Source of the DNA: Acidimicrobiaceae bacterium
GTDB lineage: Bacteria; Actinomycetota; Acidimicrobiia; Acidimicrobiales; Palsa-688
NCBI GenBank assembly: GCA_009785715.1
Contig: WQVT01000001.1
Coordinates: forward strand, 1 to 37,300
Length of the DNA stretch: 37,300 nucleotides
Direction of reading: 5' to 3'
Part shown: positions 1-37,300 of the stretch, piece by piece
Layout of the letters: each line of letters begins with the position of its first letter
Position numbering within the stretch: the first letter of the stretch is position 1
Program-made: the position numbers and the translations under genes
Notes under the pieces: model-generated
The model's input: the letters and a program-made list of their open reading frames with translations, nothing else
Database searches by the model: none
What the model was told of the DNA's origin: nothing

Positions 1-507
1 ATCAAGCTGACCGGCGTCGATCCCTCCTGGGCGGCGGCGCTGGGCACCATCGCCATGCACGAGTCGGGCGGCAACCCATCGGTCGACCAGGGCGGCCTCA
101 GCGGCTACGCGCAGGCGCACGGCGTGATGCAGATGATTCAGGCCACGTTCGCCGCCAACGCGCTGCCCGGCCATACCGACATCTACAACCCGGTCGACAA
201 CATCGCGTCGGCGATCGAGTACATCAAGCAGCGGTACGGAAACCCCAACAACACGCCCGGCATCCGCTCCATCAACTCCGGCGGGTCTTACCAGGGCTAT
301 GCCACTGGTGGCATAGCCCTCACTCCGCAACTCGCCGCCCTTGCCGAGAACGGCCCTGAAGCCGTGCTGCCCCTGACTGGCGCGCGCGGCGGTGAACTCT
401 CCGATCAGACCGACCTCTTGCAGGAGGCCGTGGACATCCTGAAGCAGATCGCCGCACCGAACCCGAAGGTGCCGTCGAGCTTCAGCGCCCGGATGAGGCA
501 CGCATGA
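1..507 (+). CDS. Tape measure protein, C-terminal fragment (5' end outside window) with a lytic-transglycosylase-like motif
   Basis: Frame 1 is open from nt 1 (IKLTGVDPSWAAALGTIAMHESGGNP...GVMQMIQATF). This is the E-S-G-G-N plus GxMQ signature of SLT-type muramidase modules often embedded in siphovirus tape measure proteins. Stop TGA 505-507 overlaps the next ATG (ATGA), and tail genes follow. Confidence 0.6.
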   Translation: MKLTGVDPSWAAALGTIAMHESGGNPSVDQGGLSGYAQAHGVMQMIQATFAANALPGHTDIYNPVDNIASAIEYIKQRYGNPNNTPGIRSINSGGSYQGYATGGIALTPQLAALAENGPEAVLPLTGARGGELSDQTDLLQEAVDILKQIAAPNPKVPSSFSARMRHA

Positions 508-7430: not shown

Positions 7431-10400
7431 ATGTCCTACTTCCAGGGATCGCTCAGCCAGCTTGCGGTCTATCCGTACGCGCTCACGCCCGCCGAGATTC
7501 TGGCGCACTACGCCGCCGCTTACGCCGACGCGATCCCGGTCTACCCCTCGATCGCGAATCACATCGTGACCATGCCCAACGGCACCACGCTCATGGGCGG
7601 TCACCCGACGTGGACCGACGGCACCTTCCGGCTGCGCTGGCAGGTTCCCGCGATCGGCAACGGCGCGTTCACGGTGCAGTTCGGGTCCGCCGAGGTAGAG
7701 GTCTCGGTCAACGCGGGAGTGCTCACCTCTTCGGTGGGGGTCTCGGGATCGTGGGCGGTGACCGGAAGCGCGCCGGTCACGCCGGGCAACTGGTACTGGG
7801 TTTACCTGACCAACCAGGGCACGCTGTCGAGCTACTACATCGTGGCCGACGAGAACGGCGCGCCTGGCCCGACCAAGCTCGTCTCCGGCTCCGGCGTCTT
7901 CACCAACCGCCCGCCGCGCCCGATCCTGCTCAGCGTCAGCCAGGGGCCGATCCTCTTCGGCGGCAACTACCCGCAGGTCTGCACCGTGTACCCGGCCGTG
8001 CTGCCAGCGGACTGGCTGATGGTCAACGCGCCGGGCTGGAACGTACTGGAGCCCGCCTTCTGCTGGGACACGACGACCGCCCAGTCGGGCAGCCGGTCGC
8101 TCTCGATCCAGTCGGGCATCATCGCCGACCCCACGTGGTGGGTGACGCAGTCGCCGGACGAGTGGAACTCGATCCCGGCCACCGCCTCGACACCCTACTC
8201 GTTCACCGGCTGGATCAAGACGATGGGCAACGAGACGATGGGTCCGATCTACCAGTCGGAGGTGCTCAGCACGCCGGGCATCCGCGCCTACTACCGGCTC
8301 GACGACCATGCCGCCACCGCCATCGCCGACCTCGGCAGCATGGGCGCGAACGGATCGGGCACCGGGGCCATGCTCACCGACCAGGCTGGGCTCATCGCGG
8401 CCGACCCCAACAGCGCGTTCCTGCTCCAGGGCGGCATCATCTCCTGGCCGCAGGCTGCGCTGGGCGACTCGTGGTCATGGGAGTGCTGGTTCCAGGCACC
8501 GACCACGCTGCCGCTCGGCGGCTTCTACGAGCTACTGCGCTGGGGCAATACGCGGATCGCGCTTGACGAGAACAACCGCCTCGACTTCGGGCCGCTGAAG
8601 TCACCGAACTCGGTCGCTGACGGGAACCCGCATCACCTCGTGGTCAGCGTCTCGCCGACCGCCATCTGGATGTACCTCGACGGCGGGCCGATCGGCTACA
8701 CCGATCTCACACCGACGCCGCTGCCGCTGACGGTGCCGGTCACCTACCCCGAGGTGGTGCAGGACATCCCGGGGCTCGCGCACTACTGGCGACTCGGCGG
8801 TGGCGGTCCGTGGCAGGACATCATCGGAGGCATAGCCGCGACCGCCGTCGGAGCCGGGACAGTGACGCCTGTGCCGGGCTTGGTGGGGGACGACGACGGA
8901 GCGATCAGGACGACGTCGACCTCCGGTGTCGGAACCGCGTCGCTGCTGCCTGCGTACACGACGTGGTCGTGGGCCTTCCTCTTCAAGATCGCCACCACCG
9001 ACATGACGATGACGTCCAACTACGTCCTCTACACGGGCGCGTCCGGCGTCATCGGCCCGCGCGTTTACCTGTCGCTCGATGTCGCCACGGGACGCCGGTA
9101 CCTCTACTTCTACGGCACAAACCTCAGCGGAGTGAGCGCATACACCACGCTCTGGAGCGGCGACAAGGACTACAACGACGGCCAGACACATCACGTTGTG
9201 GTCACCTGGGACGGCGTGACGGCAAGCCTCTACAGTGACGGCGTCCTTCGCCAATCGCGCGTCGCTGTGGACCCGAACCAGATGATCATGCCCGCCGGTC
9301 GGCTGGTCCGCATGGGCTGCTACACCGCCAGCAGCGGACAGGAATGGGATGGGATCGTGGACGAGGTCTCTTGGTGGGATCGCGCGCTCGATCAGTCGGA
9401 GGTCACCGCGCTGTATCAGGCGATCCCCAAGACGCCCGTCGACCGCCTCATCAGCGGCCTGGCGGGCGATGTCGAGCACGACATCACGGTCCAGGCCTTC
9501 AACGCGTCAGGCGGCGGTCCGGCCGCGACCGCCAGTACCGCACCGTGGGGCGCGCTCTACGCCACCAGCGTGACCGCCGGGTACGGCATCCCGGGCACAA
9601 GCTGGCTGAAGCTCGACGAGGTGGCCTTCTACACCGCCGCACTAACGGCGGATCAGGTCGGCGCGCACTGGGTCGCCGGGTCGTCGAGCGACGCGCTCGG
9701 CCCCCAGGGTGCCGGGTGGTACGAGGTATGGGAGTGGGATGCCCTCGGCAACATGGTGGCCCGCCACCTGAGCGCCGGTCCGCCCGCCGATGCGCTGCTC
9801 GGCTGGGGACAAGTGACGGTCAACTTCACCACCCAGCCCAACGCCACCTACTTCTCGATCCGCACCGTGCTGGTCGCCACCGGCACGGTCTGGTTCGACA
9901 ATGTCCTGGTCGCGCCCGACGTCTCCTCTGGCGCGGTGACGAACGTGACCGATGGGGTGCGGGTGATGGGGCCACCGGCCATGTCGGTCTTCCACCTCGC
10001 GGGGAACAACGGGGCGGATGTGGTGCCGCTCTTCTTCGGCACCTACAGCCGCTCCCAGGAGGGCGGGCCTCAGGTCACCACCAACATGGACGTGACGCAG
10101 ATTCCGATCTTCAACCTGGCGCAGCCGATCACCCGCACCGGAGCGATCAAGTGGAGGCAGGTGCAGTTCAACGCCATGTTCCTCGCGCCGGAGGCGATGG
10201 CGCAGTACACCGCGCTCCGGAACACGGCCTACGCCAGCAACACCCCGATCTTCTTCCGCGATCAGTCGGGACGACAGGCGCTGGTGCAGCAGTCGCCGCA
10301 GGGCCACCAGGTGCAGCACGAGCCCAGCAACTACCGGCGGCGCTACGACCTTCAGAACACATACCTGGAGGTCCCGAACACGGTCTCGCCGTACACGCCA

Positions 10401-10475
10401 TACGCGTACGTGGTGGGCCGCCGGGCGCTGCTCAACGGGTCGCTCCCGGCGCTCGACCTCACAGAAGAAGTATGA
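7431..10475 (+). CDS. Minor tail / host-recognition protein (1014 aa) with one beta-sandwich module, a CBM-like domain and two nested LamG domains
   Basis: ATG 7431 is preceded by AGGAGG (7420-7425). It lies in the same frame as the upstream giant ORF, 3 codons after its TAG. The N-terminus (SYFQGSLSQLAVYPYALTPAEILAHY) looks like the last strand of a LamG domain. A fourth module ends GGNYPQVCTVY. LamG signatures are IRAYYRLDD...SWSWECWF...GNPHHLVVS and LAHYWRLGG...WSWAFLF...GQTHHVVVTWDG...VDEVSWWDRALDQSEVTALY. Confidence 0.85.
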   Translation: MSYFQGSLSQLAVYPYALTPAEILAHYAAAYADAIPVYPSIANHIVTMPNGTTLMGGHPTWTDGTFRLRWQVPAIGNGAFTVQFGSAEVEVSVNAGVLTSSVGVSGSWAVTGSAPVTPGNWYWVYLTNQGTLSSYYIVADENGAPGPTKLVSGSGVFTNRPPRPILLSVSQGPILFGGNYPQVCTVYPAVLPADWLMVNAPGWNVLEPAFCWDTTTAQSGSRSLSIQSGIIADPTWWVTQSPDEWNSIPATASTPYSFTGWIKTMGNETMGPIYQSEVLSTPGIRAYYRLDDHAATAIADLGSMGANGSGTGAMLTDQAGLIAADPNSAFLLQGGIISWPQAALGDSWSWECWFQAPTTLPLGGFYELLRWGNTRIALDENNRLDFGPLKSPNSVADGNPHHLVVSVSPTAIWMYLDGGPIGYTDLTPTPLPLTVPVTYPEVVQDIPGLAHYWRLGGGGPWQDIIGGIAATAVGAGTVTPVPGLVGDDDGAIRTTSTSGVGTASLLPAYTTWSWAFLFKIATTDMTMTSNYVLYTGASGVIGPRVYLSLDVATGRRYLYFYGTNLSGVSAYTTLWSGDKDYNDGQTHHVVVTWDGVTASLYSDGVLRQSRVAVDPNQMIMPAGRLVRMGCYTASSGQEWDGIVDEVSWWDRALDQSEVTALYQAIPKTPVDRLISGLAGDVEHDITVQAFNASGGGPAATASTAPWGALYATSVTAGYGIPGTSWLKLDEVAFYTAALTADQVGAHWVAGSSSDALGPQGAGWYEVWEWDALGNMVARHLSAGPPADALLGWGQVTVNFTTQPNATYFSIRTVLVATGTVWFDNVLVAPDVSSGAVTNVTDGVRVMGPPAMSVFHLAGNNGADVVPLFFGTYSRSQEGGPQVTTNMDVTQIPIFNLAQPITRTGAIKWRQVQFNAMFLAPEAMAQYTALRNTAYASNTPIFFRDQSGRQALVQQSPQGHQVQHEPSNYRRRYDLQNTYLEVPNTVSPYTPYAYVVGRRALLNGSLPALDLTEEV

Positions 10476-27013: not shown

Positions 27014-28207
27014 ATGACGGCCAAACGGGCGCACGTGCTCCCGATGTCGGCGAACGAGGGTAGAGGAGCAGGCGCAGTGGCTGCGGAAGCACCGCCGTCC
27101 GCACCGGTCAAGGTGCATATCCGGGACTTGACGATCGACCCGGCGATCCAAATCCGGAAGGCCAATCGCGAGCAGGCGATCCTGCGCTACATGGACGCCA
27201 TCGACGTGCTGCCGCCGGTCGAGGCGATCCGCACGCCTGAGGGCAAGCTGATCCTCTACGACGGCTTCCAGCGCACTGCAGCGCACCAGCGGCTGGGGCT
27301 GGACGACATCCGGGTGCTGATCGAGGACGGCACCCGCGAAGAGGCGCTGGAGCGGGCGATCGTCGCCAATCTCCGCCACGGCGAGCCGCTCGATCAGGAC
27401 GAGCGCGACGAGGCGATACGCCGCCTGCACCAACTCCACCCGCAGGCGGGCTCCCGGCTGATCGCGACCAAGATGATGCACTCGGTGAGCGCCAGCACGG
27501 TCGAGCGGTTGCTGGACGCGGACGAGGTCCGGCAGGCGGTGCCGTTCAAGTGGCTCACCCACATCTCGCACGGCGCGCTCGCCGACATCTCGGCCGCACC
27601 CAAGGCGAACTGGTCTGCACTGGCTTGCGCTTACGACCAGAACAAATGGACAAGACCGCAGCTACAGCAAGCGGTTAAGGAGGTGGGCGACGAATCGGTG
27701 CCTGCCGCCCACCGCCAGGCGCTGCTCGACGGAACCGCCCAACCGGGGGACCATCTCCGGACAGAAAAGGCAGAAGAGGAGAAAACTGAGCAGCCCGCCG
27801 CCCCTGGTGCGGTTGGGCAACTCACTGTGGTGAGCGAGCAGGCGGAAGAGGAGCCGGAAGAGGAGCCGGAGGAGGACGAGTACGTCGGTGATGAGCCGGG
27901 CTACGACCCGGTCGGCACCGACGTCGGCGAGCGGCTGATCGCGGTCTCGCCGTTCGTGGTCATCCCGGTGCGCATCCCGTCCGGTCGGCCGCGTCAGCGT
28001 GGGAACCGGACTTACCAGCGAGAGCGGGTGACGGTGCAGCGCACGATCCCGATCTCGGTCACCGATGAGGTGCTGGACGGTCACGGCAACCCGAACGACA
28101 TGGAGTCGGCGGGCTGGGCAATGCTCTGCCGGGAGGTGTACCGGCAACTCTGGCGCTCGCGTCCGGCGATCTGGCCGCCGGATGGACCGGGGTGGGGCGA
28201 GACGTGA
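27014..28207 (+). CDS. ParB/Srx N-terminal-domain protein (397 aa) with an acidic linker
   Basis: The stretch IRDLTIDPAIQIR...LPPVEAIRTPEGKLILYDGFQRTAAHQRLG...ANLRHGEPL is ParB-N-like. An EEEPEEEPEEDE tract follows. An alternative start GTG 27077 lies 7 nt after GAGGAG. Confidence 0.7.
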   Translation: MTAKRAHVLPMSANEGRGAGAVAAEAPPSAPVKVHIRDLTIDPAIQIRKANREQAILRYMDAIDVLPPVEAIRTPEGKLILYDGFQRTAAHQRLGLDDIRVLIEDGTREEALERAIVANLRHGEPLDQDERDEAIRRLHQLHPQAGSRLIATKMMHSVSASTVERLLDADEVRQAVPFKWLTHISHGALADISAAPKANWSALACAYDQNKWTRPQLQQAVKEVGDESVPAAHRQALLDGTAQPGDHLRTEKAEEEKTEQPAAPGAVGQLTVVSEQAEEEPEEEPEEDEYVGDEPGYDPVGTDVGERLIAVSPFVVIPVRIPSGRPRQRGNRTYQRERVTVQRTIPISVTDEVLDGHGNPNDMESAGWAMLCREVYRQLWRSRPAIWPPDGPGWGET

Positions 28208-28220: not shown

Positions 28221-28616
28221 GTGAAGCGCTGGGTGCTGGCGGTGGGCGATCGGGTACGGGTTTGGCGGGTGCCGGAGGACGATCCCTGGCTGCGGCCGGT
28301 GCTGGGGCGGATGGGGGTGGTCAGGGAGCGCGGGAAGCTCGATGCGCGCGGCTATGTTCGAGCGCCCTGGTACGTGGTGCTGGACATCGAGGGCCGCGAG
28401 ATCACGTTGCTGGAGTCGGAGTGCGAGCCGGTGGTGGAGGCCAGGGATGACGCTGGAGAAGGACAAGTTCAAGGAGCAGTTCCGCGACGCGGTCATGCAC
28501 GAGGTGCCGGAGGGGGAGCCGGACTTCCGGATCATCGCCTGGTACGAGCGCGGCGGGATCAACTTCGACCTGCGCACGCAGGACTGCGGAGCGCCGCACC
28601 TTCTGACGGCCGCTGA
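28221..28616 (+). CDS. Hypothetical protein; the 5' ~75 codons look coding and the 3' part probably does not
   Basis: GTG 28221 (VKRWVLAVGDRVRVWRVPEDDPW...). After nt ~28447 third-position GC collapses in this frame, but no stop occurs until 28616. Confidence 0.45.
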   Translation: MKRWVLAVGDRVRVWRVPEDDPWLRPVLGRMGVVRERGKLDARGYVRAPWYVVLDIEGREITLLESECEPVVEARDDAGEGQVQGAVPRRGHARGAGGGAGLPDHRLVRARRDQLRPAHAGLRSAAPSDGR

Positions 28617-28926
28617 GACGCTGTGGGACGCCGCAGAGCGGCTTAGGAGCGCTCGGGTGTACGACCAGCAGCGTGGGGCCGCCAAAGCCCGTGAGGTGGC
28701 TCTGGGCGGCCAGACGCTGCGTGTGGAGGCGGACGACGTGCTGCTGCTGCTGGAGCGGGAGGGGACGCACTGGGTGCTCGACGCCTACTCCTGCGCGACG
28801 CCAGCGGCAGAGCACCTCGGTTGGGTGGCGACGGTGTTGCGCGAGATCGTTCGGGAGGAGGCTCGGCAACTGGTCCGGCAGGCTCGCCAGGAGGCGGAGC
28901 GGCGCACCATCCAGAACCGGGTTTGA
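28447..28926 (+). CDS. Hypothetical protein (159 aa)
   Basis: ATG 28447 (MTLEKDKFKEQFRDAVMHEV...). This frame has very high GC3. Confidence 0.65.
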   Translation: MTLEKDKFKEQFRDAVMHEVPEGEPDFRIIAWYERGGINFDLRTQDCGAPHLLTAAETLWDAAERLRSARVYDQQRGAAKAREVALGGQTLRVEADDVLLLLEREGTHWVLDAYSCATPAAEHLGWVATVLREIVREEARQLVRQARQEAERRTIQNRV

Positions 28927-28932
28927 GGGAGC

Positions 28933-28970
28933 GGCTCCGGGCGTGGGGTAGGGAGGTTTCGCCCGGAGCC
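28933..28970 (+). other. Perfect 10-bp GC hairpin with an 18-nt loop in an intergenic gap
   Basis: GGCTCCGGGC (28933-28942) pairs with GCCCGGAGCC (28961-28970). The loop contains GGGAGG. There is no U-tract, and a G8 run follows. Confidence 0.4.
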
Positions 28971-29024
28971 AGGGGGGGGAGGTGCGAGAGCGTTGGTCAG
29001 GGTACGAGGGGACGGATTAAGGAT

Positions 29025-29225
29025 GTGGTAAGCGAACGTACGCCGGATGACCGGCTCTCGCTGGCTTCAGAGGGGTTCTGCCCGGACTGTGGGCGCGAGA
29101 TGATGCGCGTGTCTCCGACGGTGTGGCCCGGCGCGACCGGCTACTGCCAGGAGTGCGACACGTTCGTGCGGTTCGAGGGGAGCGCCGCGTTCCCGATCAT
29201 GGTGTGGTGGGGCGGTGCGGATTGA
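29025..29225 (+). CDS. Small zinc-ribbon protein (66 aa)
   Basis: GTG 29025. Two CxxC pairs are present (CPDC...CQEC). The start is uncertain. Confidence 0.5.
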   Translation: MVSERTPDDRLSLASEGFCPDCGREMMRVSPTVWPGATGYCQECDTFVRFEGSAAFPIMVWWGGAD

Positions 29226-30525
29226 AAAGCGCCGGGTAGCCGATCTCACGCCTGCCCACTACAACCCGAGGCGCGATCTGCGGCCCGGCGACCCACGTTA
29301 TGAGCAGATTAAGGATTCGCTCGACCGCTTCAGCCTGGTGCTGCCGCTGGTCTTCAACGAGCGCACGCACCGGCTGGTCTCGGGCCATCAGCGGGTGAAG
29401 GTGCTGCTGCAGGAGGGGGTCGAGGAAGCCGAAGTGTCGGTGGTCGACGTTGACGAGCAGGCCGAGATGGCGATGAATCTGGCGCTCAACAACGTCGAGG
29501 GTGAGAACGATCCCGATCAGTTGCGCGTGGTCTTGAGCCAGTTGGAGAACTTCCGGGGCACCGGCTTCGAGCCGGAGGACTACGCGGCGATGACCGCCGC
29601 CTTCGATGTCGACGATCTGCAGCCGGAGGGCGAGCCGTCGGAGTCGGACTACCGGGCACTGTCACTGCCGTTCATCGTGCAGGGCACGGGTGCCTGCTGC
29701 ATGGCGGTGGCGGCGGGGCTGCAGTACGGGACGCAGTCGCCGCGCAAGCTGTGTGGAAACGCGGCGCAGCCGAAGCACCGGATCACGTTCGTCGACATCG
29801 ACCTGCGGCGTTACGACCACGACCGCCACCTCGCCTACTGCGAGGCGGTGTCGCCCAGGTACGCCGCCACCCGCGACGTGATGACGAAGTCGCAGTGCGA
29901 GAAGGCGGGCATCCCGTACCACCCGCTGGATCGGGTGCTCAGGTGGGCGGAGGAACTCTCTCTGGTCTGCGAGCACGTGGTGGTGGTGCCCAAGTTCGAC
30001 TGCCTGCACGAGATACCGAAGGACTACGTGCTCGGGTATTCGGTGGCGACGAGCTACGGGTCGACGCCGATGCCGTTCACCGCCTTTCGAGGTCGGCAGG
30101 TGCATCTGCTCGGCGGGTCGCCGCAGAAGCAGTGGGAGTACTTCCGCTCGGCCCCCAAGGACGTGGTCTCGATTGACAGCAACTACATCCTGCGGATGGC
30201 GGCGTTCGGTCAGTGGTTCGATCTGGAGACGATGGCGTTCCGGCACATCGACGAGGTGACCGGCAGCCGACACCGGCAACCGGCGATGTCGGCGGCGCTG
30301 GCGTTGTCGGCGCTGAACGTGGCGGAGATGTTCGAGCGGGAGCGTCTGGAGGGCCAGGCGGTGGACAACCTGGTGGACCGGATTCTGGAGATGCCGACGC
30401 CCTACTCACGGGTGCTGCTGGGCGCGTTGGGGCTCTCCCTGTCGAACATCGCGGGGCTGTTCAACCGGGCACCGATCGAGGATGCGATGAAGTCGTTGCC
30501 GTCAAGAGCGAGGGGGACGAAGTGA
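29215..30525 (+). CDS. ParB-N-domain protein fused to an uncharacterised ~290-aa C-terminal domain
   Basis: The N-terminus RVADLTPAHYNPRRDL...SLDRFSLVLPLVFNERTHRLVSGHQRVKVLL...NLALNNVEGENDPDQL is of the type usually fused to DNA methyltransferases. I see no DPPY/F or FxGxG methylase motif in the C-terminal part. Confidence 0.6.
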   Translation: MRIEKRRVADLTPAHYNPRRDLRPGDPRYEQIKDSLDRFSLVLPLVFNERTHRLVSGHQRVKVLLQEGVEEAEVSVVDVDEQAEMAMNLALNNVEGENDPDQLRVVLSQLENFRGTGFEPEDYAAMTAAFDVDDLQPEGEPSESDYRALSLPFIVQGTGACCMAVAAGLQYGTQSPRKLCGNAAQPKHRITFVDIDLRRYDHDRHLAYCEAVSPRYAATRDVMTKSQCEKAGIPYHPLDRVLRWAEELSLVCEHVVVVPKFDCLHEIPKDYVLGYSVATSYGSTPMPFTAFRGRQVHLLGGSPQKQWEYFRSAPKDVVSIDSNYILRMAAFGQWFDLETMAFRHIDEVTGSRHRQPAMSAALALSALNVAEMFERERLEGQAVDNLVDRILEMPTPYSRVLLGALGLSLSNIAGLFNRAPIEDAMKSLPSRARGTK

Positions 30526-31634: not shown

Positions 31635-31830
31635 CTTCGACTGGGCGGCCTTGTCGCCGATCGGGTGGTGCATCTTCCTGATCGGGGTGATGGCGGTCGT
31701 GGTAGTCCTGGTGCATGACTCTGATCCCGAGCGGCGGTGGGCGGTGGAGGGGTTGCTGTGGCTGTCGGTTCGGTTGAGCGAGGCGGCGTCGGCCACGCAA
31801 GCAGCCGCCCGAGCTATTGGCAGCAGGTAG
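31600..31830 (+). CDS. Possible small membrane protein (start uncertain)
   Basis: The ORF contains a hydrophobic helix (IGWCIFLIGVMAVVVVLV). It overlaps the putative 5' end of the terminase ORF, so only one of the two readings may be real in 31737-31830. Confidence 0.3.
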   Translation: MVFYRWGGLRDDFDWAALSPIGWCIFLIGVMAVVVVLVHDSDPERRWAVEGLLWLSVRLSEAASATQAAARAIGSR

Positions 31831-33800
31831 CTGCGGGCTGCGCCGGAGACTTCCTGCAGTACCTCGTGTTCGTGATGGGTGTGATGCCTGCCGAGCACCA
31901 CCTCGTGATCTGCGAGCGGCTGCTGTACGGCACGCCGATGGAGTTGATCCTTGGTCCGCCGGACTCGGGGAAGTGCGTGGCCGGGAGTGACACCATCCCG
32001 CTAGCGGATGGGCGTCGGAAGCTGGCGGCTGAATTGGTGGGCACCGACTTCTCGCTGCTGACCGTGACAGAGGCGGGTATCGAGCCGGTTCGGGCGCACG
32101 CGGAGTGGAACCGCCTGGAGCCGGTCTACGAGGTGATGACCGACTCCGGTCGCCGCATCCGGCGTAACGCCCAGCACCCGCTCTGGTGCGCGGACACGCA
32201 GCGCGACGGATTGCGGGTGCGGCGCACATGGCAGGCGGTTGGGAAGCACGGGTCGGGCCGGATGCTCCTGAAGCGGGAGGGCTGGTGGGCAGTGGCGGAC
32301 ATCCGTCCGGGTGATCTGGTCGCAGTCGCAGCGGAGCTTCCGTATCGCCCCTGGTGCAGCACACTCACCGATGCCGAGGTGGCGTTTCTCGCCTACATGA
32401 TCGCGGAAGGGACGGTCGGCTCGGGGACACTGCGCCTCACGCAGAAGCCGGGCGCGGTGCTTGACGATATGAGGGAGGTCGCGCGATCGGTGGGCTGCGA
32501 TCTGCGGCCGGTCTCCGCGATTGACTACACGGTGGCCGGAATCGGAAACCGACAGGGCCAGGCGAAGCGGCGGAATCCGGGCAAGGAACTGCTGCGGGCT
32601 CACGGCGTACTGGGCAGGCACTCGCGAGAGAAGCGGGTGCCGGACGCCGTCTGGGGGCTGCCGGACCGGCAGGTGGCGCTGTTCTTGAACCGGCTCTACG
32701 CCTGCGACGGATCGGCGCTCGTCAACTGGAAGGTGCGTTGCCCGGTGGGGCTGGTGACTTTCACCTCGGCCTCACGCGGGCTGGTCGAGGATGTTCAGGA
32801 GTTACTGCTCCGGTTCGGCGTGTCAAGTCGCATCCGGCATCGGGAGGCGCAGAACGCGTGGACGGTGGACATCCAGCGGGCGGCCGATCTGCTGGCGTTC
32901 GCGACCAAGATCGGGGCGCTCGGCAAAGAGGCGCGGATCGACGAGGTCCGGCGGTTCGCCTCGACGCGCCGCAATCTCCAGCGGTGGCGACGGGCCGGGT
33001 TGCCGGACGGTCTTCAGTGGGAGCGTGTGCGGTCGGTCACGTACACGGGCGATGAGCGGACGGTGGCGATCGAGGTGCCAGGTCACCAGACGTTCCTGAG
33101 CACGTTCTGGGAGCACAACACCACGATCATGGTGGGCTACATCACCTGGACTTTGGGGCGGAATCCGAACTACCGCTGGCTGGTCGCGAGTGAGGGTGCA
33201 GTGGGGATCGCGACGGTGACGGTGACGCAGGTGGCGGAGACGATCGCGGCGAACGAGCGTTACCAGATGGTGTTCGGGGCGTTGCGTGATCCCCGAGGTC
33301 GGGGTGAGTGGTCGTCGCAGTCGATCAGGTTGCGCACGTATCTCTCGACGCGGGAGGCGGCGCGGCTGCATCAGCCGCCGAGTCCACCGGCACCGCCGTG
33401 GCTGCAGTTGCCGGAGAGGAGCAAGCCGCCGATGGCGACGATGATCAGTCCGCGCCGGGGTCGGGATGCGGCGCTGGCGCATCCCAACGTGAAGGCGGTG
33501 GGGTGGCGGTCGGGGTACACGGGTGTTCGGTGTGAGGGGATCGTGTGTGACGACCTGGTGTCGGACCGATCGTCGCGTTCGGAGGCGATGACGGACGCGA
33601 TCCACTCGACGCTGCACCAGAAGCTGTTGGCGCGGTTGACGGGTCAGCAGCAGCGGGTGGTGGTGTTGGGTCAGCGGTGGGCACCGAGGGACCTGTACGG
33701 GCGGCTTTTGGAGTCGTCGACGGTGTCGTTCAACAGCAACCCCAACAACGAGGGGTTGGAGGTCTTGGAGGGGGTGGAGGAGGAGCCAGGGCTGGATTGA
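31737..33800 (+). CDS. terL: Terminase large subunit, ATPase part, interrupted by an intein; no nuclease domain recognisable
   Basis: The exteins read ...FLQYLVFVMGVMPAEHHLVICERLL...LILGPPDSGK | TTIMVGYITW... (Walker A GPPDSGKT restored after splicing). Later motifs are GIVCDDLVSD (Walker B-like) and VVVLGQRWAPRDLYGRLL (RWHxxDL-type coupling motif). The ORF stops 27 codons after that motif. The start codon is uncertain between 31737 and ~31830. Confidence 0.75.
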   Translation: MGGGGVAVAVGSVERGGVGHASSRPSYWQQVAAGCAGDFLQYLVFVMGVMPAEHHLVICERLLYGTPMELILGPPDSGKCVAGSDTIPLADGRRKLAAELVGTDFSLLTVTEAGIEPVRAHAEWNRLEPVYEVMTDSGRRIRRNAQHPLWCADTQRDGLRVRRTWQAVGKHGSGRMLLKREGWWAVADIRPGDLVAVAAELPYRPWCSTLTDAEVAFLAYMIAEGTVGSGTLRLTQKPGAVLDDMREVARSVGCDLRPVSAIDYTVAGIGNRQGQAKRRNPGKELLRAHGVLGRHSREKRVPDAVWGLPDRQVALFLNRLYACDGSALVNWKVRCPVGLVTFTSASRGLVEDVQELLLRFGVSSRIRHREAQNAWTVDIQRAADLLAFATKIGALGKEARIDEVRRFASTRRNLQRWRRAGLPDGLQWERVRSVTYTGDERTVAIEVPGHQTFLSTFWEHNTTIMVGYITWTLGRNPNYRWLVASEGAVGIATVTVTQVAETIAANERYQMVFGALRDPRGRGEWSSQSIRLRTYLSTREAARLHQPPSPPAPPWLQLPERSKPPMATMISPRRGRDAALAHPNVKAVGWRSGYTGVRCEGIVCDDLVSDRSSRSEAMTDAIHSTLHQKLLARLTGQQQRVVVLGQRWAPRDLYGRLLESSTVSFNSNPNNEGLEVLEGVEEEPGLD
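31974..33119 (+). mobile_element. Intein (382 aa) with a LAGLIDADG homing endonuclease, inserted in the TerL P-loop
   Basis: It begins with Cys (CVAGSDTIPLADG) directly after GPPDSGK. It ends ...VAIEVPGHQTFLSTFWEHN, followed by a Thr +1 nucleophile. The two LAGLIDADG blocks are FLAYMIAEGTVG and FLNRLYACDGSA. Confidence 0.85.
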
Positions 33801-34905
33801 GGCGGCTCGGCCTGTCGGGAGTGGCCGGGTTGGACGGGGTCGTCGTCCGGGCTGGGTAGGGAAGGCATGTCGGGGACGAGTTGGGCCGGGGTGGGTTGTC
33901 GGTGACAGGTGTGGTGCGGACTGTCGCCGGGGGGCGGGGCGGATCGGTATGTCTCGGCAGGATTCGGCATGTCGGGTCGGAACGGTTCGGCCCGCTCGGC
34001 TTGTCTGGGATGGTCGGCATTGAATCGGATCGGCATGTCGGACAGGGCTGATCAGGTGCGGGTTGTCGGTGTGACAAGGACGGGTTGGGTCGGGCAAGGT
34101 TTGTCGGGTGGAGGGCAAGGCTCGGGATGGCATGTCAGCGAGGCATGGTCAGGCGTGTCGGCCAGGCATGGCTGTGGTTGGGCTCGTCGGGCGCGGCATG
34201 GGACGGGACGGTCGCGGCCAGGCATGTCGGTGTGGCTGGGAGCGGTTTGTCGTCGGAATAGGCGTGGCGTGGGATGTCGTGGACGGATAGGCATGGGATG
34301 GCCTGGGATGTCGGGGCGGTGAGGTGAGTCGGGGAGTGGCGTGTCCTGGCCTGTCGGGTGGGCATGTCGGGGGGCGAGGCGTTGGCGTGGGATGGACAGT
34401 CGGAGTGGCCCGGCAGGTACTGGATAGGTCTTTCGGATCGGCGAGGCATGGGGCGGGAGCAGACCTGGCGCGGCCTGTCGGTCGGGAAGGGGGGGTCGGA
34501 TTGTCGGTGCGGAACGAACGGGGATGGGCAGGACAGTCTTCGGGACTGGTAGGGCTCGGCTTGTCGGTGGGGAGTGAGGCGTGGTGGGGGTCGGATTGTC
34601 GTTCGTCGGGGGGTGGGAAGGTGTGGACCGGAGTGTCGGCACGGGTTGGAGTGGAGCGGCATGTCGGACTGGGCGGGGCAAGGGTTGTCGGGGTGGTCCG
34701 GACGGTGGAGGGGTGGCGTGGAGTGTCGGGCGGGAATAGGGACGGGTCGGGTAGTCGGCGTGGAGTGGGCCGCAGAGGGGTGGCCTGTCGGATCGGTGCC
34801 GGAACGGGCGGGGTCGGCCTGTCGGAACGGATTGGGGGGGCATGTCGGCACGGTTCGGCGTGATCCGGACTGGGATGTCGGGTGGTGCGGATAGGTGAGG
34901 GGTGT
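33801..34905 (+). repeat. G-rich non-coding array of same-orientation GGCNTGTCGG motifs (23 exact TGTCGG cores plus about 12 degenerate)
   Basis: See the first finding for the coordinates of every exact copy. No CCGACA occurs on the + strand in this interval. The copies fall in all three phases. Confidence 0.8.
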
Positions 34906-34906
34906 C

Positions 34907-35554
34907 CTAGGCGATCTGCTCGAAGTCGATCAAGTCGAAGGTGCCGGAGCCTTGTGAGCGGTCAGCGCCGAGGCCGCCGTCCTGGAGGTATTCGAGGATG
35001 GTGCGGAGGTGGGTTTCTTTGACGATGCCGTCTCTCAGGATGCGGATGTTGAACTGGAGGGGGACGTCGGTGGCGTATTCGACGGCTTTGAGGGAGGTGC
35101 GAGGACCCTGCATGGTCATGACCTGGATGGGTCGTTCTGTGAGGTGGAGGATGTCGCCGGGCTGGTGGGTCTCACCGCAGCCGCAGATGATGGGGCAGCC
35201 GCCGATTCTGGGGTCGACGAAGACGCGTTCTGCGAGTTTGGAGCGGAAGTTCTTGACATCGAGGACGCCGGAGCGGGAGGCGGTGGAGCCGAGGATGTTC
35301 GCGGCCTCTTTGATGGCGGCTTTCATGGCGCGGGACTCGTATTCGGGGGAGCCGTCGGGGGCGCGCCAGAAGATGGTGGTGTGGGTGTCTTCGGGGTTGA
35401 ACTCCTGTCGGATGGCGAGTTGTTGAGCGGCCTGGTCGGCGGCATCGGCGGGGGCTTTGTTGGAGGCGAGCCAGGCGTCTATCAAGCGTGGGTTGCCGGG
35501 GAAGCCGCCGGTCAAGCGGTGGGCGTGGGCGCGGAAGAGGAAGGTGTCGAACAT
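34907..35554 (-). CDS. Hypothetical protein (215 aa) with a C-terminal RAMP-like glycine-rich loop
   Basis: High GC3 with C-ending codons. The C-terminus LQDGGLGADRSQGSGTFDL has the GhGxxxxxGxG spacing seen in Cas5/6/7 RAMP proteins. The CPIICGC cluster is unexplained. The family is unknown to me. Confidence 0.6.
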   Translation of the reverse strand: MFDTFLFRAHAHRLTGGFPGNPRLIDAWLASNKAPADAADQAAQQLAIRQEFNPEDTHTTIFWRAPDGSPEYESRAMKAAIKEAANILGSTASRSGVLDVKNFRSKLAERVFVDPRIGGCPIICGCGETHQPGDILHLTERPIQVMTMQGPRTSLKAVEYATDVPLQFNIRILRDGIVKETHLRTILEYLQDGGLGADRSQGSGTFDLIDFEQIA

Positions 35555-35596
35555 GGTGGGAGGCTACCCTAGCAGGGTGTGAGTCAAACCTGCGGG

Positions 35597-36412
35597 CTAT
35601 CGGGAGGGTCCGTGGAAGGAGCGACCTTTGGGGAGTGGGCGGATGGGGAGGCGTTGTGGCTCGCGGCGGCCTTTGTTGTAGGCGGCGAGGAACTGTTCTG
35701 CCATGGCCTGGTCGATCCGCTGGTGCTGGAGGAGTGAGAGTTCCTTGGCGGCGGCCATGACGCGGGAGGGTTTCAGGAAGCGGAATTTTTGAGCGACGCC
35801 GTTCTGGGCGGCTTCGGGGTAGGCCCCGAGGAATGCGACAAGGCCATCCAGGAACCAGGTGTGACAGCAATCCTGGTCATCTTCCCAGACGTCGTGGATG
35901 AGGGAGAAGGCGGTTTCGAGGGTGCCGAGTTCGACGCCGCGCACGAGGGGAGCGGTGGCAGCGATGGCCTTGGTGCGGTGTTTGCGACCGGCGCGGTCCA
36001 AGCGGTAGCCGAACTGGGTGAGGATGCGGTGGGCTTCGACGGCGACGGGGTCACCGGCGGTGATGCGGGCCTGGAATTCGGCGAGGGCGACGAACTGCTT
36101 GCGGTTCTGGTTCAGGTCCAGGCATAGCTGGGCGGCCTTGGCTTGGGAATCGACATCCCAGTGGACGCGAGCCCAGAGGGCGGTGATGTGGAAATGGCGG
36201 GCGTTGATGAGTCGAGTGCCGCCGTCGGCTGCGCAGAAGATGCCGTTCTGGGCTTTGGTGGGGCGGGAGTCGAGGTCGGGGTAGGAGTCGATGTCGTGGG
36301 CGAGGTCTGGCCGCCAGGCGTCCCAGAGGGCGTGGTTCTTGCGGGTATTGACGAGCGGGTCGATCTTCAGATTGGCGACGGGCAGGAGTTCGCGGGAGAT
36401 GCGGTCGTCCAT
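35597..36412 (-). CDS. ParB/Srx-fold-like protein (271 aa), third in the window
   Basis: The N-terminus LPVANLKIDPLVNTRKNH...GIFCAADGGTRLINARHF resembles the ParB-N DGxxR core. High GC3. Confidence 0.5.
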   Translation of the reverse strand: MDDRISRELLPVANLKIDPLVNTRKNHALWDAWRPDLAHDIDSYPDLDSRPTKAQNGIFCAADGGTRLINARHFHITALWARVHWDVDSQAKAAQLCLDLNQNRKQFVALAEFQARITAGDPVAVEAHRILTQFGYRLDRAGRKHRTKAIAATAPLVRGVELGTLETAFSLIHDVWEDDQDCCHTWFLDGLVAFLGAYPEAAQNGVAQKFRFLKPSRVMAAAKELSLLQHQRIDQAMAEQFLAAYNKGRREPQRLPIRPLPKGRSFHGPSR

Positions 36413-36418: not shown

Positions 36419-36823
36419 CTAGTTCCAGTGCTGGAGGGGGAGTTGGCGCACGGCGGCGCGGAGGAGCGAGATGCTTTCGGGGTCGAGGCTGTCGAGGAGG
36501 CGCTGGCGGTTGCGTTTGAGGAGGCGCTGGCAGGCGCGGAGTTCTCTGGTGCGAGCGGGGTTCGGGGGGTAGTGCTGATCGGCTTCCAGGAAGACATCCA
36601 CGAGGTGGCGCGAGTAGTGGGCATTACGGACATCCCACTCGGCGAGTGGGTTCAGGGGGATGGCGAAGTCTTCCACCGGGTGGTCGAGCAGCGGCTCGGG
36701 GTGGAGATAGGGGTGGCGACGGCTGGCGGGGACGCCGTCACACCGCGCACAGCAGTCGCTCGTTGGCCGCCAGTGGGTTGCGCCGCATTCAGAGCAGCGT
36801 TTGGCGGCGGATTTTCGGGCCAT
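36419..36823 (-). CDS. Zinc-ribbon protein (134 aa), first gene of the leftward operon
   Basis: I prefer ATG 36823 (MARKSAAKRCSECGATHWRPTSDCCARCDG...) over the longer ORF to 37078, whose upstream part has poor coding character. Confidence 0.55.
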   Translation of the reverse strand: MARKSAAKRCSECGATHWRPTSDCCARCDGVPASRRHPYLHPEPLLDHPVEDFAIPLNPLAEWDVRNAHYSRHLVDVFLEADQHYPPNPARTRELRACQRLLKRNRQRLLDSLDPESISLLRAAVRQLPLQHWN

Positions 36824-37010: not shown

Positions 37011-37300
37011 ACCCTCACGAGTCTTCGTGTTGCTTGCCCAACACGGCGACCGGGCATAAGCGTACAGGAGAGCGGCAACGAAGGGGTAGCGCCCTCTGTC
37101 GCAGAGGTGCGCAGGAGAGCCGTCAGAGGGAGACGTTTTTCGCGTCTGCTGGGACCAGAGCAGGTTCAGGCGAACGCGGTGCGGACGGACGGGTGCGAGC
37201 GACGACGGCTCGGAAAAAATCGGTCGGGGCAACACTGGGCGGGGGGCTAAGGCGTCTCGTGTAGGCTTCGACGCCCAGACAAACCAAACCGGTCCCGGCC

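What the first reader, a model, noticed from the sequence alone, without database searches (positions are those of the whole stretch)
33801..34905. 1.1-kb one-directional array of about 35 GGCNTGTCGG motifs in an extremely G-rich gap between the terminase ORF and a convergent ParB-like operon
**Copies.** Exact TGTCGG cores start on the + strand at 33813, 33868, 33897, 33970, 34036, 34064, 34102, 34156, 34225, 34309, 34352, 34365, 34476, 34502, 34562, 34634, 34662, 34686, 34724, 34786, 34820, 34843 and 34876. That is 23 copies, and I found no CCGACA on the + strand in this interval. About a dozen one-mismatch copies add to them: TGTCGC 33922, TGTCTCGG 33950, TGTCTGG 34002, TGTCAG 34133, TGTCGT 34275 and 34597, AGTCGG 34327 and 34398.

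**Extended consensus.** Flanking bases extend the motif to GGCATGTCGG (7 copies), GGCCTGTCGG (5 copies) and G(G/A/C)TTGTCGG (6 copies).

**Spacing and phase.** Spacing is irregular at 13-111 bp, commonly 23-38. The copies fall in codon phases 0/1/2 as 6/10/7, so this is not a protein repeat.

**Composition.** A hand count of 34081-34140 gives G30 C10 T12 A8. With that composition I estimate roughly one chance TGTCGG per 1.1 kb.

**Context.** The array starts at the TerL stop (33800) and ends at the stop of the convergent gene 34907-35554. Three ParB/Srx-fold proteins are encoded within 8 kb.

**Hypotheses (all inference):**
- A protein-loading array, such as a centromere, pac site or origin, for a ParB-like protein or the small terminase.
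- An RNA-level element. The leftward transcript would be C-rich and G-poor, making it an ideal rut/Rho entry site or a protein sponge with repeated CCGACA.
- A G-quadruplex or R-loop forming region, because the rightward non-template strand is G-rich.

I know of no described element with this architecture.
Basis: partly seen in the sequence, partly recalled or inferred. Interest (0 to 1): 0.85.

Follow-up and report, generated by a model that had tools for sequence, protein, structure and literature searches.

The report
Phage VIPR guide-RNA repeat array
The G-rich "TGTCGG array" is real and non-coding, and it is most likely the guide-RNA array of a VIPR system, a CRISPR-like, phage-encoded RNA-guided DNA-binding system first described in 2026 preprints, so it is a new example of a known kind and not an unknown element.

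Summary
**Observation.** It is confirmed. There are 23 exact TGTCGG on the + strand in 33801-34905 and no CCGACA; shuffles give 2.2 ± 1.5. The strand is 50% G and shows no codon periodicity.

**Structure.** TGTCGG is not the basic unit. The + strand is a phased lattice of NNNGG pentamers. G autocorrelation at lag 5 is 0.32, against 0 ± 0.03 in shuffles. About 29 NNNGTCGG octamers interrupt the lattice, each a 3-nt GTC insertion.

**Linkage.** The array travels with the convergent 215-aa gene (34907-35554, − strand), not with TerL or ParB. Homologues down to about 25% identity, in about 40 phage or MAG loci, have the same kind of array beside them.

**The protein.** It is a minimal Cas7-like RAMP (AF2 pLDDT 91; Foldseek hits to type VII, Cmr4 and Csm3 Cas7). 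By profile-profile comparison it is related to the experimentally characterised SUSP1 Vipr (hhalign 87%, E 4e-6).

**Interpretation.** This matches VIPR (bioRxiv 10.64898/2026.04.26.720920): Vipr protomers bind one pentamer each, hide the GG and present the variable bases to read target DNA.

**Local peculiarities.**
- There is no pyrimidine preference at position 3.
- The GTC punctuation is conserved across the clade.
- The array is convergent with vipr.
- The array is very long, at about 1.1 kb.

**Open points.** No targets were found. The transcribed strand and RNA processing are inferred, not shown.

The parts
33801..34905 (+). vrRNA-type guide array. About 190 units, mainly NNNGG pentamers (81 by simple tokenisation), with 25-29 NNNGTCGG octamers.
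   Evidence: motif counts against shuffles, lag-5 G autocorrelation 0.32, and 62 of the window's 106 GGN3GGN3GG hits; no codon periodicity; no Rfam family.
34907..35554 (-). vipr-like gene. It encodes a 215-aa minimal Cas7-like RAMP with a single RRM core, a beta-hairpin thumb tipped by the invariant QGPR, and a C-terminal G-loop G(L/I)GADRSQGxG.
   Evidence: AF2 pLDDT 91.2, pTM 0.84. Foldseek PDB hits to type VII Cas7, Cmr4 and Csm3 at E 7e-7 to 1e-5. BFVD hit 'Cas system-associated RAMP superfamily protein' at E 1.6e-11; weak Csm4, Cas6_C and RAMPs G-loop hits; hhalign to the SUSP1 Vipr family at 86.9%, E 4.2e-6.
35597..36412 (-). 271-aa divergent DUF6551 protein (ParB/GmrSD-N-like) immediately upstream of vipr. 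It is a candidate accessory (vap-like) DNA-binding protein, but that status is uncertain.
   Evidence: Pfam DUF6551 at E 9e-4, below cut-off; its remote homologues are clear DUF6551 members (E down to 2e-28), some with ParB_N or GmrSD_N; it is not conserved next to vipr in related loci.
36419..36823 (-). 134-aa protein with an N-terminal CxxC...CxxC zinc ribbon. It is the first sizeable gene of the leftward operon. A role in the system is not shown.
   Evidence: gene call in L001 (3824-4228) mapped to the window, with its sequence. No family hits.
34610..34677 (+). Longest in-phase chain inside the array: 12 consecutive units (GGGGT GGGAA GGTGT GGACC GGAGT[GTC] GGCAC GGGTT GGAGT GGAGC GGCAT[GTC] GGACT GGGCG). 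It is a candidate single guide.
   Evidence: chain parsing. Other chains have 10 units (34801-34858), 8 units (34285-34332) and 7 units (34467-34512).
34052..34843 (-). 263-aa proline-rich ORF called by automatic gene finders on the C-rich strand. It is judged not to be a gene.
   Evidence: called in L001-L003; no GC3 periodicity; open frames of this length arise in 12% of shuffles; no family; the motif falls in all three frames.
37274..37300 (-). Edge of a second, short G-lattice stretch on the − strand, upstream of the operon and in the same sense as vipr. It continues beyond the window and is followed by a small hairpin at about 37245-37272.
   Evidence: L001 at about 3240-3375 reads ...TTGTCGAGG...TAAGTCGG CCGGG ACCGG TTTGG TTTGTCTGG. 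Only the last ~27 nt lie in the window.

Best explanation
The 1.1-kb interval is the guide-RNA (vrRNA) array of a VIPR (Viral Interference Programmable Repeat) system carried by a high-GC tailed phage.

**Mechanism, taken from the published SUSP1 system and inferred here.**
1. The G-rich + strand is transcribed.
2. The adjacent 215-aa Vipr RAMP polymerises along the RNA, one protomer per pentamer.
3. Each protomer sequesters the invariant GG and exposes the variable bases.
4. The exposed bases read a gapped sequence in double-stranded DNA of competing phages or other mobile elements, which silences or blocks them.

**Shown here.**
- The pentamer GG lattice.
- Its exclusive and evolutionarily deep linkage to the RAMP gene.
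- The Cas7-like fold of that protein, and its profile-level relationship to SUSP1 Vipr.
- GG positions are conserved and N positions variable between related arrays.
- Arrays turn over faster than vipr.

**Inferred.**
- Which strand is RNA.
- That Vipr binds it.
They are a 3-nt insertion that shifts the lattice about every 33 nt, and they may mark unit boundaries or processing and registration sites.
For: **1. Lattice.**
- The + strand tokenises into 81 NNNGG pentamers and 25 NNNGTCGG octamers.
- GG is phased at 5-nt steps on both sides of every TGTCGG.
- Lag-5 G autocorrelation is 0.32 against 0 ± 0.03 in shuffles. GGN3GGN3GG occurs 62 times against 17 ± 5.
- The window has no other such region.

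**2. Linkage to the RAMP gene.**
- Homologues of the 215-aa protein at 66%, 61% and 55% identity have the same skewed array directly downstream. In L005 TerL lies about 7 kb away, and L007 has only about 50% GC.
- In 46 further loci, the most strand-skewed 300-nt window almost always abuts the gene. Its lag-5 autocorrelation is 0.2-0.48.
- GG-lattice arrays were detected next to vipr in about 30 non-redundant loci.

**3. The protein.**
- The AF2 model is confident.
- The top PDB matches are Cas7 subunits of type VII, III-B and III-A effectors.
- hhalign against the SUSP1 Vipr family gives 86.9%, E 4.2e-6, over 122 co-linear columns from helix-1 through the thumb to the G-loop.
- The SUSP1 ORF I used is the protein deposited as 'SUSP1 Vipr protein', PDB 36pp.

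**4. Published definition of VIPR.** A phage-encoded minimal RAMP is flanked by intergenic arrays of YNNGG pentamers, with NNNGG, YNNNG and NNNNG variants. There are seven types, including staggered arrays. One protomer binds per repeat. SUSP1 itself shows the same lattice in its flanking intergenic regions.

**5. Evolution.**
- Between L031 and L043, substitutions hit 15 of 261 GG positions against 85 of 496 other positions (p = 5e-6).
- Arrays diverge faster than vipr. In L013/L016 the gene is 87% identical and the best array HSP is 68% over 232 nt. In L030/L031 the gene is 81% identical and the arrays give no HSP.

**6. Strand.** In low-GC relatives the array lies on the vipr sense strand, and it is still the G-lattice strand with a related punctuation (ATGCCGAG or ATGTCGAG).

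**7. No self-target.** No match above control level was found in the window. The paper reports the same for its systems.
Against: - No expression data exist, so the strand, the RNA ends and Vipr binding are not shown.
- The sequence link to SUSP1 Vipr is remote. It is found only by profile-profile comparison. The A1 profile does not retrieve 36pp from PDB sequences at E ≤ 10, and a direct hmmsearch gives only 8 bits.
- Position 3 of the pentamer shows no pyrimidine preference here (A .23, C .26, G .33, T .17), whereas it is 100% Y in SUSP1.
- There is no invariant structured 3' tail after 9-16 repeats. Uninterrupted chains have only 4-12 units.
- The array is antisense to vipr in all high-GC relatives, unlike SUSP1.
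- No conserved accessory gene is present.
- No natural target was found. Two exact xNN patterns gave 0 hits in IMG/VR. In metagenomes one pattern gave nothing. The other hit a bacterial ligA and an MBL-fold gene, at about the number I estimate for chance.
- I could not see the paper's figures or tables, so I cannot say which VIPR type this is.
Confidence: 0.85

Rival explanations
1. DNA-level protein-loading array. The repeated GGCNTGTCGG sites on double-stranded DNA would act as a centromere, pac site or origin. They would be bound by one of the ParB-like proteins, the small terminase or a replication initiator.
For: - The array sits right after TerL, within 8 kb of ParB-like genes (29215-30525, phrog_620 at E 1e-31; 27014-28207, phrog_1033).
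- It is next to a DUF6551/ParB-like gene.
- Direct-repeat centromeres and iteron origins are known from my own knowledge.
Against: - In relatives the array stays with the RAMP gene while TerL and ParB neighbours change or are distant.
- A double-stranded binding array would not need 50% G on one strand or a 5-nt GG lattice between sites.
- The sequence between motifs turns over quickly while GG is kept. That pattern fits a guide scaffold, not spacer DNA.
- No ParA partner or palindromic parS was seen.
Confidence: 0.04
2. The C-rich leftward transcript is the active molecule. It would be the 3' extension of the vipr operon mRNA and would act as a Rho-loading (rut) region, or as a sponge or scaffold carrying repeated CCGACA. 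The RAMP might then bind CC-lattice RNA.
For: - In all high-GC relatives the C-rich strand is the sense strand of vipr and lies directly downstream of it.
- In the window no terminator separates the vipr stop from the array.
- C-rich, G-poor RNA is the classical rut composition (my own knowledge).
- The C-rich strand is predicted to fold only weakly, -207 against -467 kcal/mol for the G strand.
Against: - In low-GC relatives the G lattice, not a C lattice, is on the vipr sense strand. Only "the G strand is functional" is consistent across the family.
- In the homologous, experimentally studied system the RNA carries GG.
- In L031/L043 a strong hairpin sits between the vipr stop and the array, which argues against obligatory co-transcription.
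- A rut site needs neither 1.1 kb nor a 5-nt register.
Confidence: 0.06
3. Structural nucleic-acid element. GG tracts spaced by 3 nt would form two-tetrad G-quadruplexes or R-loops that block or regulate the convergent transcription units.
For: The composition (50% G) and the GG-N3 spacing allow G2 quadruplexes throughout. The region lies between convergent genes.
Against: - This does not explain the strict linkage to a RAMP gene over deep divergence.
- It does not explain the conserved GTC punctuation.
- It does not explain NNNNG lattices with single Gs in low-GC relatives, which cannot form G-quadruplexes.
Confidence: 0.03
4. The region encodes a real proline-rich protein, the 263-aa ORF 34052-34843 on the − strand, as automatic annotation suggests.
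For: - Gene callers predict it in three independent contigs, and an analogous 285-aa ORF in L005.
- The only indel between near-identical contigs is 3 nt long.
Against: - There is no codon-position GC signal.
- The motif is spread over all three frames.
- Open frames of this length arise by chance on such a C-rich strand.
- There is no family hit.
- The periodicity is 5 nt, not 3 nt.
Confidence: 0.02

Closest known systems
VIPR systems (Viral Interference Programmable Repeat): Vipr RAMP plus vrRNA. The reference is type II of Escherichia phage SUSP1 (bioRxiv 10.64898/2026.04.26.720920 and 10.64898/2026.04.26.720927).
   Same: - It is phage-encoded.
- It has a ~20-kDa single-RRM RAMP with a thumb and a G-loop.
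- Long intergenic arrays of 5-nt units with invariant GG and variable remaining bases flank the gene.
- The variable positions are hypervariable.
- There are no cas genes and no CRISPR array.
- Profile-level homology to SUSP1 Vipr is detected.
   Different: - The units are NNNGG with no pyrimidine at position 3. The paper names this variant, but not for type II.
- There is no separate ~100-nt vrRNA with a structured invariant 3' tail. Instead there is one continuous ~1.1-kb lattice punctuated about every 33 nt by NNYGTCGG.
- The array is convergent (antisense) to vipr.
- The neighbouring gene is a DUF6551/ParB-like protein that is not conserved among relatives.
- Targets are unknown.
Class 1 CRISPR-Cas effector backbones (Cas7/Csm3/Cmr4 filaments on crRNA)
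   Same: The best structural matches of the 215-aa protein are Cas7 subunits. The general principle is also shared: a RAMP polymerises along a guide RNA and flips bases at a fixed period.
   Different: - No CRISPR repeats of 23-50 nt, no cas1/cas2 and no other RAMPs were seen in the locus.
- The period is 5 nt and is written into the genome sequence. In CRISPR the 6-nt period is imposed on an arbitrary spacer.
- The system is encoded by a phage.
Multi-site protein-binding RNAs such as CsrB/RsmZ (GGA repeats) or the TRAP-binding (G/U)AG-N2-3 leader (my own knowledge)
   Same: Many short G-containing motifs lie at about 5-nt spacing on one strand of a non-coding region.
   Different: Those RNAs titrate or are sensed by CsrA or TRAP, which are not RAMPs. 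They are not hypervariable between the motifs, and they are not linked to a Cas7-like gene.
ParB-parS, ParR-parC centromeres and iteron origins
   Same: These are clusters of short repeats near ParB-like genes.
   Different: Those sites act as double-stranded DNA, and parS is typically palindromic or the repeats are helically phased. They show no extreme strand skew. Here the array co-varies with a RAMP gene, not with ParB-like genes.

Membership tests
VIPR system | Vipr protein: a small (~20 kDa) RAMP with a single RRM core, a glycine-rich loop and a thumb, and no second RRM. | tested here: met
   The protein has 215 aa. The AF2 model has pLDDT 91 with one beta-alpha-beta core, a long beta-hairpin (137-173) and a C-terminal G-loop. 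Foldseek hits Cas7 of types VII, III-B and III-A at E ~1e-6. There are G-loop hits to Csm4, Cas6_C and RAMPs.
VIPR system | Homology to an experimentally validated Vipr (SUSP1, PDB 36pp). | tested here: met
   hhalign of the family alignment A1 against the SUSP1-family alignment A2 gives probability 86.9%, E 4.2e-6, over 122 co-linear columns. The link is remote: single-profile searches are not significant. The identity of the SUSP1 ORF was confirmed.
VIPR system | vrRNA region made of tandem pentanucleotide repeats with conserved GG (YNNGG or the stated variants NNNGG, YNNNG, NNNNG), with at least 4 units. | tested here: met
   There are 81 NNNGG pentamers, chains of 4-12 in-phase units, and lag-5 autocorrelation of 0.32.
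VIPR system | Pyrimidine at position 3 of the repeat (GGY), as in type II. | tested here: not met
   Position 3 is A .23, C .26, G .33, T .17 here, against 100% Y in SUSP1. The paper accepts NNNGG variants for other types, so this excludes type II-like grammar but not VIPR membership.
VIPR system | The array lies in a long intergenic region flanking vipr. | tested here: met
   The array fills the whole gap from the vipr stop (34907) to the TerL stop (33800). The same arrangement is seen in about 30 related loci.
VIPR system | Conserved GG positions and hypervariable N positions between related arrays. | tested here: met
   Between L031 and L043, 15 of 261 GG positions are substituted against 85 of 496 other positions, p = 5e-6. 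Arrays diverge faster than vipr. This was tested on relatives, because the window's own near-identical copies carry no information.
VIPR system | Discrete vrRNAs of 9-16 repeats capped by an invariant structured 3' tail. | tested here: not met
   No recurring structured tail and no Rfam hit were found. The only recurrent element is the NNYGTCGG octamer, about every 33 nt. The paper mentions other architectures (staggered, ribozyme-interspersed, single) whose figures I could not see.
VIPR system | An accessory vap gene with a DNA-interacting function next to vipr. | tested here: inconclusive
   The upstream 271-aa gene is a divergent DUF6551 (ParB/GmrSD-N-like) protein. It is not conserved beside vipr in relatives.
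VIPR system | vrRNAs are expressed and co-purify with Vipr. | not testable with these tools
   This needs small-RNA-seq and a pull-down.
VIPR system | The NN code matches natural targets under the 1-nt skip rule, without self-targeting. | tested here: inconclusive
   - Exact xNN patterns of the 12- and 10-unit chains gave 0 hits in IMG/VR.
- In metagenomes the 12-unit pattern gave 0 hits.
- The 10-unit pattern hit 3 contigs, which are 2 independent sites, in a ligA and an MBL-fold gene. That is about the number I estimate for chance with 20 specified bases.
- A local mismatch-tolerant scan equalled the controls, and there was no self-target.
CRISPR-Cas | A CRISPR array (regular 23-50-nt repeats with spacers) and a cas gene set (cas1/cas2, several RAMPs). 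| tested here: not met
   TRF finds no such array in the window. Neighbouring genes in L001, L005, L007 and L008 carry no Cas Pfam families. Not every window protein was scanned against a Cas library.
ParB-parS / iteron-type DNA site cluster | Double-stranded repeats that co-vary with their binding protein (ParB or Rep), with no need for strand skew. | tested here: not met
   The array co-varies with the RAMP gene, not with ParB-like genes or TerL. The strand is 50% G with a 5-nt lattice.

The most novel reading that the evidence does not exclude
This clade (the window and relatives down to about 30% Vipr identity) may use a vrRNA grammar that is not described in the text of the VIPR papers.

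**The grammar.**
- A continuous kilobase-scale NNNGG lattice is transcribed convergently to vipr.
- A conserved 3-nt GTC insertion (NNYGTCGG here; ATG(T/C)CGAG in low-GC relatives) shifts the register about every 30-35 nt.

**What the punctuation could do.** It could be the processing or registration signal that cuts the lattice into short cassettes. That would be a 6-8-nt "repeat" plus a 20-30-nt variable "spacer", an architecture intermediate between VIPR and CRISPR arrays.
Probability: 0.3. Interest if true: 0.65.

Novelty: new member of a known kind. Interest (0 to 1): 0.45.

Why it matters
VIPR has been proposed as the phage-borne ancestor of CRISPR RAMP effectors and as a minimal programmable DNA-binding platform.

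What this locus adds:
- It is a well-delimited example from an uncultured high-GC phage.
- The array is unusually long, with about 190 units.
- The NNNGG grammar lacks the pyrimidine lock.
- The GTC punctuation is conserved in 263 of 344 eight-nucleotide units across about 30 loci.

If the punctuation marks unit boundaries, it gives a simple handle for annotating vrRNAs in actinobacterial phages. It would also help in studying how guides are defined and processed.

For annotation, the case shows two recurring errors:
- Gene callers turn these arrays into fake proline-rich ORFs.
- The RAMP gene is left as "hypothetical".

Tried and rejected
1. **Nucleotide search.** A search of 33000-36000 against cultured phages found nothing. 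TerL is only about 24% identical to known terminases. A TerL-based locus search in IMG/VR found nothing.
2. **Near-identical contigs.** L001-L004 are 99.97% identical and gave no comparative signal. They differ in the array only by a GGG deletion at 34489-34491.
3. **Coding hypothesis.** Rejected on GC-frame plot, frames and shuffles.
4. **Known RNA families.** Rfam at E ≤ 1 gave no hit, and no hammerhead.
5. **Promoter and terminator scan.** It gave nothing usable. The "terminator" at 37300-37287 is part of the second G-lattice stretch.
6. **RNA folding of both strands.** It was not informative beyond composition.
7. **Target prediction.**
   - The xNN patterns gave 0 hits in IMG/VR.
   - In metagenomes one pattern gave 0 hits. 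The other gave chance-level hits in ligA and an MBL-fold gene. Their shared peptide DV(I/M)PKVSERV is forced by the pattern itself.
   - A "contiguous NNN" decoding, BLASTed against cultured phages, found nothing.
   - Local scans under seven skip rules equalled the shuffled controls.
8. **The 271-aa neighbour.** The word-indexed search found only the protein itself. The single-sequence AF2 model had pLDDT 42 and was unusable, so no fold search was run on it. The exhaustive HMMER search placed it in DUF6551.
9. **Tandem Repeats Finder.** It does not see the array, because the units are too degenerate.
Full report
**1.

The one slip is that G(G/A/C)TTGTCGG occurs 5 times, not 6.
- The interval 33801-34905 is 50% G and has no CCGACA on the + strand.
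- Dinucleotide-preserving shuffles give 2.2 ± 1.5 TGTCGG, with a maximum of 9 in 2000.
- The interval is bounded by the stop of the intein-containing TerL ORF (31737-33800) and the stop of ORF 34907-35554 on the − strand.
- It is not coding. The strong third-position GC signal of the flanking genes disappears inside it.
- The 263-aa ORF that gene callers place on the C-rich strand is what such a composition yields by chance. The longest open run is 283 codons, against 214 ± 57 in shuffles.

**2. The real unit is a pentamer, not TGTCGG**

- On the C-rich strand, C autocorrelation peaks at lags 5 and 10 (0.32 and 0.18). The same holds in three diverged relatives.
- Read on the + strand, the sequence tokenises into NNNGG pentamers (81 units) and NNNGTCGG octamers (25 units).
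- Aligning the 23 TGTCGG sites (T = position 0) shows GG fixed at -14/-13, -9/-8, -4/-3, +4/+5, +9/+10, +14/+15 and +19/+20.
- Against shuffles:

| Measure | Observed | Shuffles |
|---|---|---|
| GGN3GGN3GG | 62 | 17.2 ± 4.7 |
| GGNNNGTCGG | 29 | 3.0 ± 1.65 |
| Lag-5 G autocorrelation | 0.32 | 0 ± 0.03 |

- Spacing between the 29 octamers has a median of 33 nt. Half of the spacings equal 8+5k nt.
- The window has no other such region.

**3. What the array travels with**

- The same phage, at 99.97% identity, occurs in four public contigs. These gave no comparative signal.
- Homologues of the adjacent 215-aa protein were informative.
  - At 66%, 61% and 55% identity (L005, L007, L008) the gene is followed by a 0.35-1 kb stretch of 45-50% C on its sense strand, with repeated CCGACA.
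  - This holds although L005 has TerL about 7 kb away and L007 is only about 50% GC.
- I aligned the family and retrieved 42 IMG/VR loci and 4 MAG loci. The MAGs are two Dormibacteria, one Pedococcus and one Nanopelagicales.
  - In nearly all of them the most strand-skewed 300-nt window of the locus abuts the gene and has lag-5 autocorrelation of 0.2-0.48.
  - GG-lattice arrays were found next to the gene in about 30 non-redundant loci.
  - 263 of their 344 GG-N6-GG units end in GTC.
- The neighbouring 271-aa and 134-aa genes are not conserved in these loci.
- The conserved module is therefore this gene plus the array.

**4. The protein**

- With the family alignment, AlphaFold2 gives a confident model: pLDDT 91.2, pTM 0.84.
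- Its best PDB matches are Cas7 subunits of type VII, III-B (Cmr4) and III-A (Csm3) effectors, at E 7e-7 to 1e-5 and TM about 0.45-0.53.
- The best viral match is annotated as a RAMP superfamily protein.
- Sequence profiles pick up only the glycine-rich loop of Csm4, Cas6 and RAMPs.
- Invariant features are KEAAN on helix 1, QGPR at the tip of a long beta-hairpin, and G(L/I)GADRSQGxG at the C-terminus.

**5. Literature**

A full-text search found two 2026 preprints from one group.

- *The first* (10.64898/2026.04.26.720920) describes VIPR systems.
  - They are mostly phage-encoded loci with a ~20-kDa minimal RAMP (Vipr), usually one accessory gene (vap), and vrRNAs encoded in the flanking intergenic regions.
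  - vrRNAs consist of 9-16 YNNGG pentamers in which GGY is conserved and NN is hypervariable, followed by a 3' tail.
  - The NN dinucleotides read double-stranded DNA with one target base skipped per repeat.
  - Natural targets are competing phages and satellites.
  - Seven types exist, with alternative NNNGG, YNNNG and NNNNG units and with staggered, ribozyme-interspersed or single-vrRNA architectures.
- *The second* (10.64898/2026.04.26.720927) shows one Vipr protomer per repeat in a right-handed filament. GG is held by the G-loop, the thumb and the RRM sheet.

**6. Testing membership**

- I located the SUSP1 locus (L056). A 195-aa ORF at 28474-29061 (−) has H17 and GVGDWRPRFGRF, as in the paper. 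YNNGG runs lie in both flanking gaps on the gene's sense strand.
- The ORF is identical to PDB 36pp, 'SUSP1 Vipr protein'.
- A profile of its family aligns to my family profile with hhalign probability 86.9% and E 4.2e-6. The 122 aligned columns run co-linearly from helix 1 through the thumb to the G-loop. This is remote but consistent homology.
- The evolutionary signature also fits.
  - Between L031 and L043 (vipr 88% identical), substitutions fall on 15 of 261 GG positions against 85 of 496 others, p = 5e-6.
  - Arrays diverge much faster than vipr.
- No self-target above control level was found.

**7. Where this locus differs from the published reference**

- Position 3 of the pentamer has no pyrimidine bias, whereas it is 100% Y in SUSP1. 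This is the NNNGG variant.
- There is no structured invariant tail and no Rfam element. The only recurrent element is the NNYGTCGG octamer. Uninterrupted chains have 4-12 units if GTC is allowed inside a chain.
- In every high-GC relative the G lattice is antisense to vipr.
- In low-GC relatives (L019, L024, L040) the array is on the vipr sense strand. There it is made of NNNNG pentamers punctuated by ATGCCGAG, ATGTCGAG or GACGGCGAG every 30-45 nt.
  - Orientation therefore varies, while the G lattice and a (T/C)CG-type punctuation persist.
  - This is my main reason, besides the SUSP1 precedent, for taking the G strand as the RNA.
- In the window that strand runs in the same direction as TerL and starts at its stop codon, so read-through from the late operon is possible. 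This is inference.
- A second, short G-lattice stretch lies upstream of the operon on the − strand and is cut by the window's right edge.

**8. Mechanism proposed**

*Shown:*
- the lattice;
- its linkage to the RAMP gene;
- the fold of the protein;
- the remote homology to SUSP1 Vipr;
- the GG-conserved, N-variable evolution of the arrays.

*Inferred from the SUSP1 work:*
- the + strand RNA is coated by the 215-aa protein, one protomer per pentamer;
- GG is sequestered and the variable bases are exposed;
- the filament recognises gapped sequences in the DNA of rival elements.

*Speculative (about 0.4):* the GTC insertions bulge out of the filament and serve as boundaries, processing sites or register marks that divide the 1.1 kb into about 30 cassettes.

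**9. Targets**

I could not find targets.

- Exact xNN patterns from the 12- and 10-unit chains gave nothing in IMG/VR.
- In the metagenome collection the 12-unit pattern gave nothing.
- The 10-unit pattern hit two independent sites, in a bacterial ligA and an MBL-fold gene.
  - With 20 specified bases and a collection of roughly a terabase (my estimate), one or two chance hits are expected.
  - The shared peptide is forced by the pattern itself.
  - I therefore treat these hits as chance.
- A contiguous-triplet decoding found nothing in cultured phages.
The test therefore has low power.

**10. Rivals**

- A double-stranded DNA site cluster for ParB-like or terminase proteins is not supported, because the array follows the RAMP gene and is strand-asymmetric.
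- A C-rich rut or sponge transcript is contradicted by the low-GC relatives.
- G-quadruplex formation cannot apply to the NNNNG arrays.
- Coding is excluded.

**11. Verdict**

The finding is real. It is best filed as a new member of the recently described VIPR kind, with clade-specific array grammar that may or may not correspond to one of the paper's seven types. I could not see the paper's figures or tables.

- Confidence in the VIPR assignment: 0.85.
- Interest: moderate. The class is already described, but this locus offers a long array and a conserved punctuation signal that could help define how vrRNAs are delimited.

Noticed in passing
window 31737-33800 (+): The large terminase ORF (687 aa) carries an intein-like insert. 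Pfam LAGLIDADG_3 matches at E 2e-17 (residues 312-393), with a weak Intein_splicing hit. The terminase similarity (phrog_38) covers only residues 462-660.
   Followed up: partly
window 37245-37300 (−), continuing in L001 at about 3240-3375: A second, short G-lattice stretch (TTGTCGAGG, TAAGTCGG, TTTGTCTGG) lies upstream of the vipr operon on the vipr sense strand. It is followed by the hairpin GGCGTC-N13-GACGCC. It may be an upstream vrRNA like the one in SUSP1, and it lies mostly outside the window.
   Followed up: partly
L019 4400-4950; L024 5404-6050; L040 5650-6150: Low-GC relatives have arrays of NNNNG pentamers on the vipr sense strand. Conserved 8-mers (ATGCCGAG, A(A/T)GTCGAG, GACGGCGAG) punctuate them every 30-45 nt, which gives a very regular repeat-spacer-like look.
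   Followed up: partly
window 34489-34491: The only difference inside the array among the near-identical public contigs is a GGG deletion in L001, within a G-run.
   Followed up: yes
L031 about 5640-5760 and the matching part of L043: A conserved ~110-nt segment ends in a strong hairpin (GGGGCCCCAGC-CGTGT-GCTGGGGCCC). It lies between the array and the vipr stop. It could be a terminator for either convergent transcript or a conserved 3' tail. The window has no equivalent.
   Followed up: no
window 504-7421 and 7431-10475 (+): Two very large ORFs are present: one of 2305 aa with an fn3 domain and one of 1014 aa with a Laminin_G_3/ConA-like domain. They are probably tail-fibre or host-recognition proteins.
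   Followed up: no
window 27014-28207, 29215-30525 and 35597-36412: The window holds three ParB/Srx-type proteins.
- One matches phrog_1033.
- One has a ParB-like N-terminus (phrog_620, E 1e-31) fused to DUF6610.
- The third is the divergent DUF6551 protein next to vipr.
Their roles are unknown.
   Followed up: partly
L008 5621-7474 and 7779-8074: One relative has a DUF87 (HerA/FtsK-like) ATPase gene directly upstream of vipr, with a small G-lattice array between the two genes. This may be a helicase- or ATPase-type accessory gene.
   Followed up: no
L058 2212-2240; L057 119-147: The xNN pattern of the 10-unit chain matches exactly inside a bacterial NAD-dependent DNA ligase gene (motif GDVIPKVSERV) and at the start of an MBL-fold gene. 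In both, the skipped base falls at codon position 3. I judge these to be chance hits, but they were not tested with controls.
   Followed up: partly
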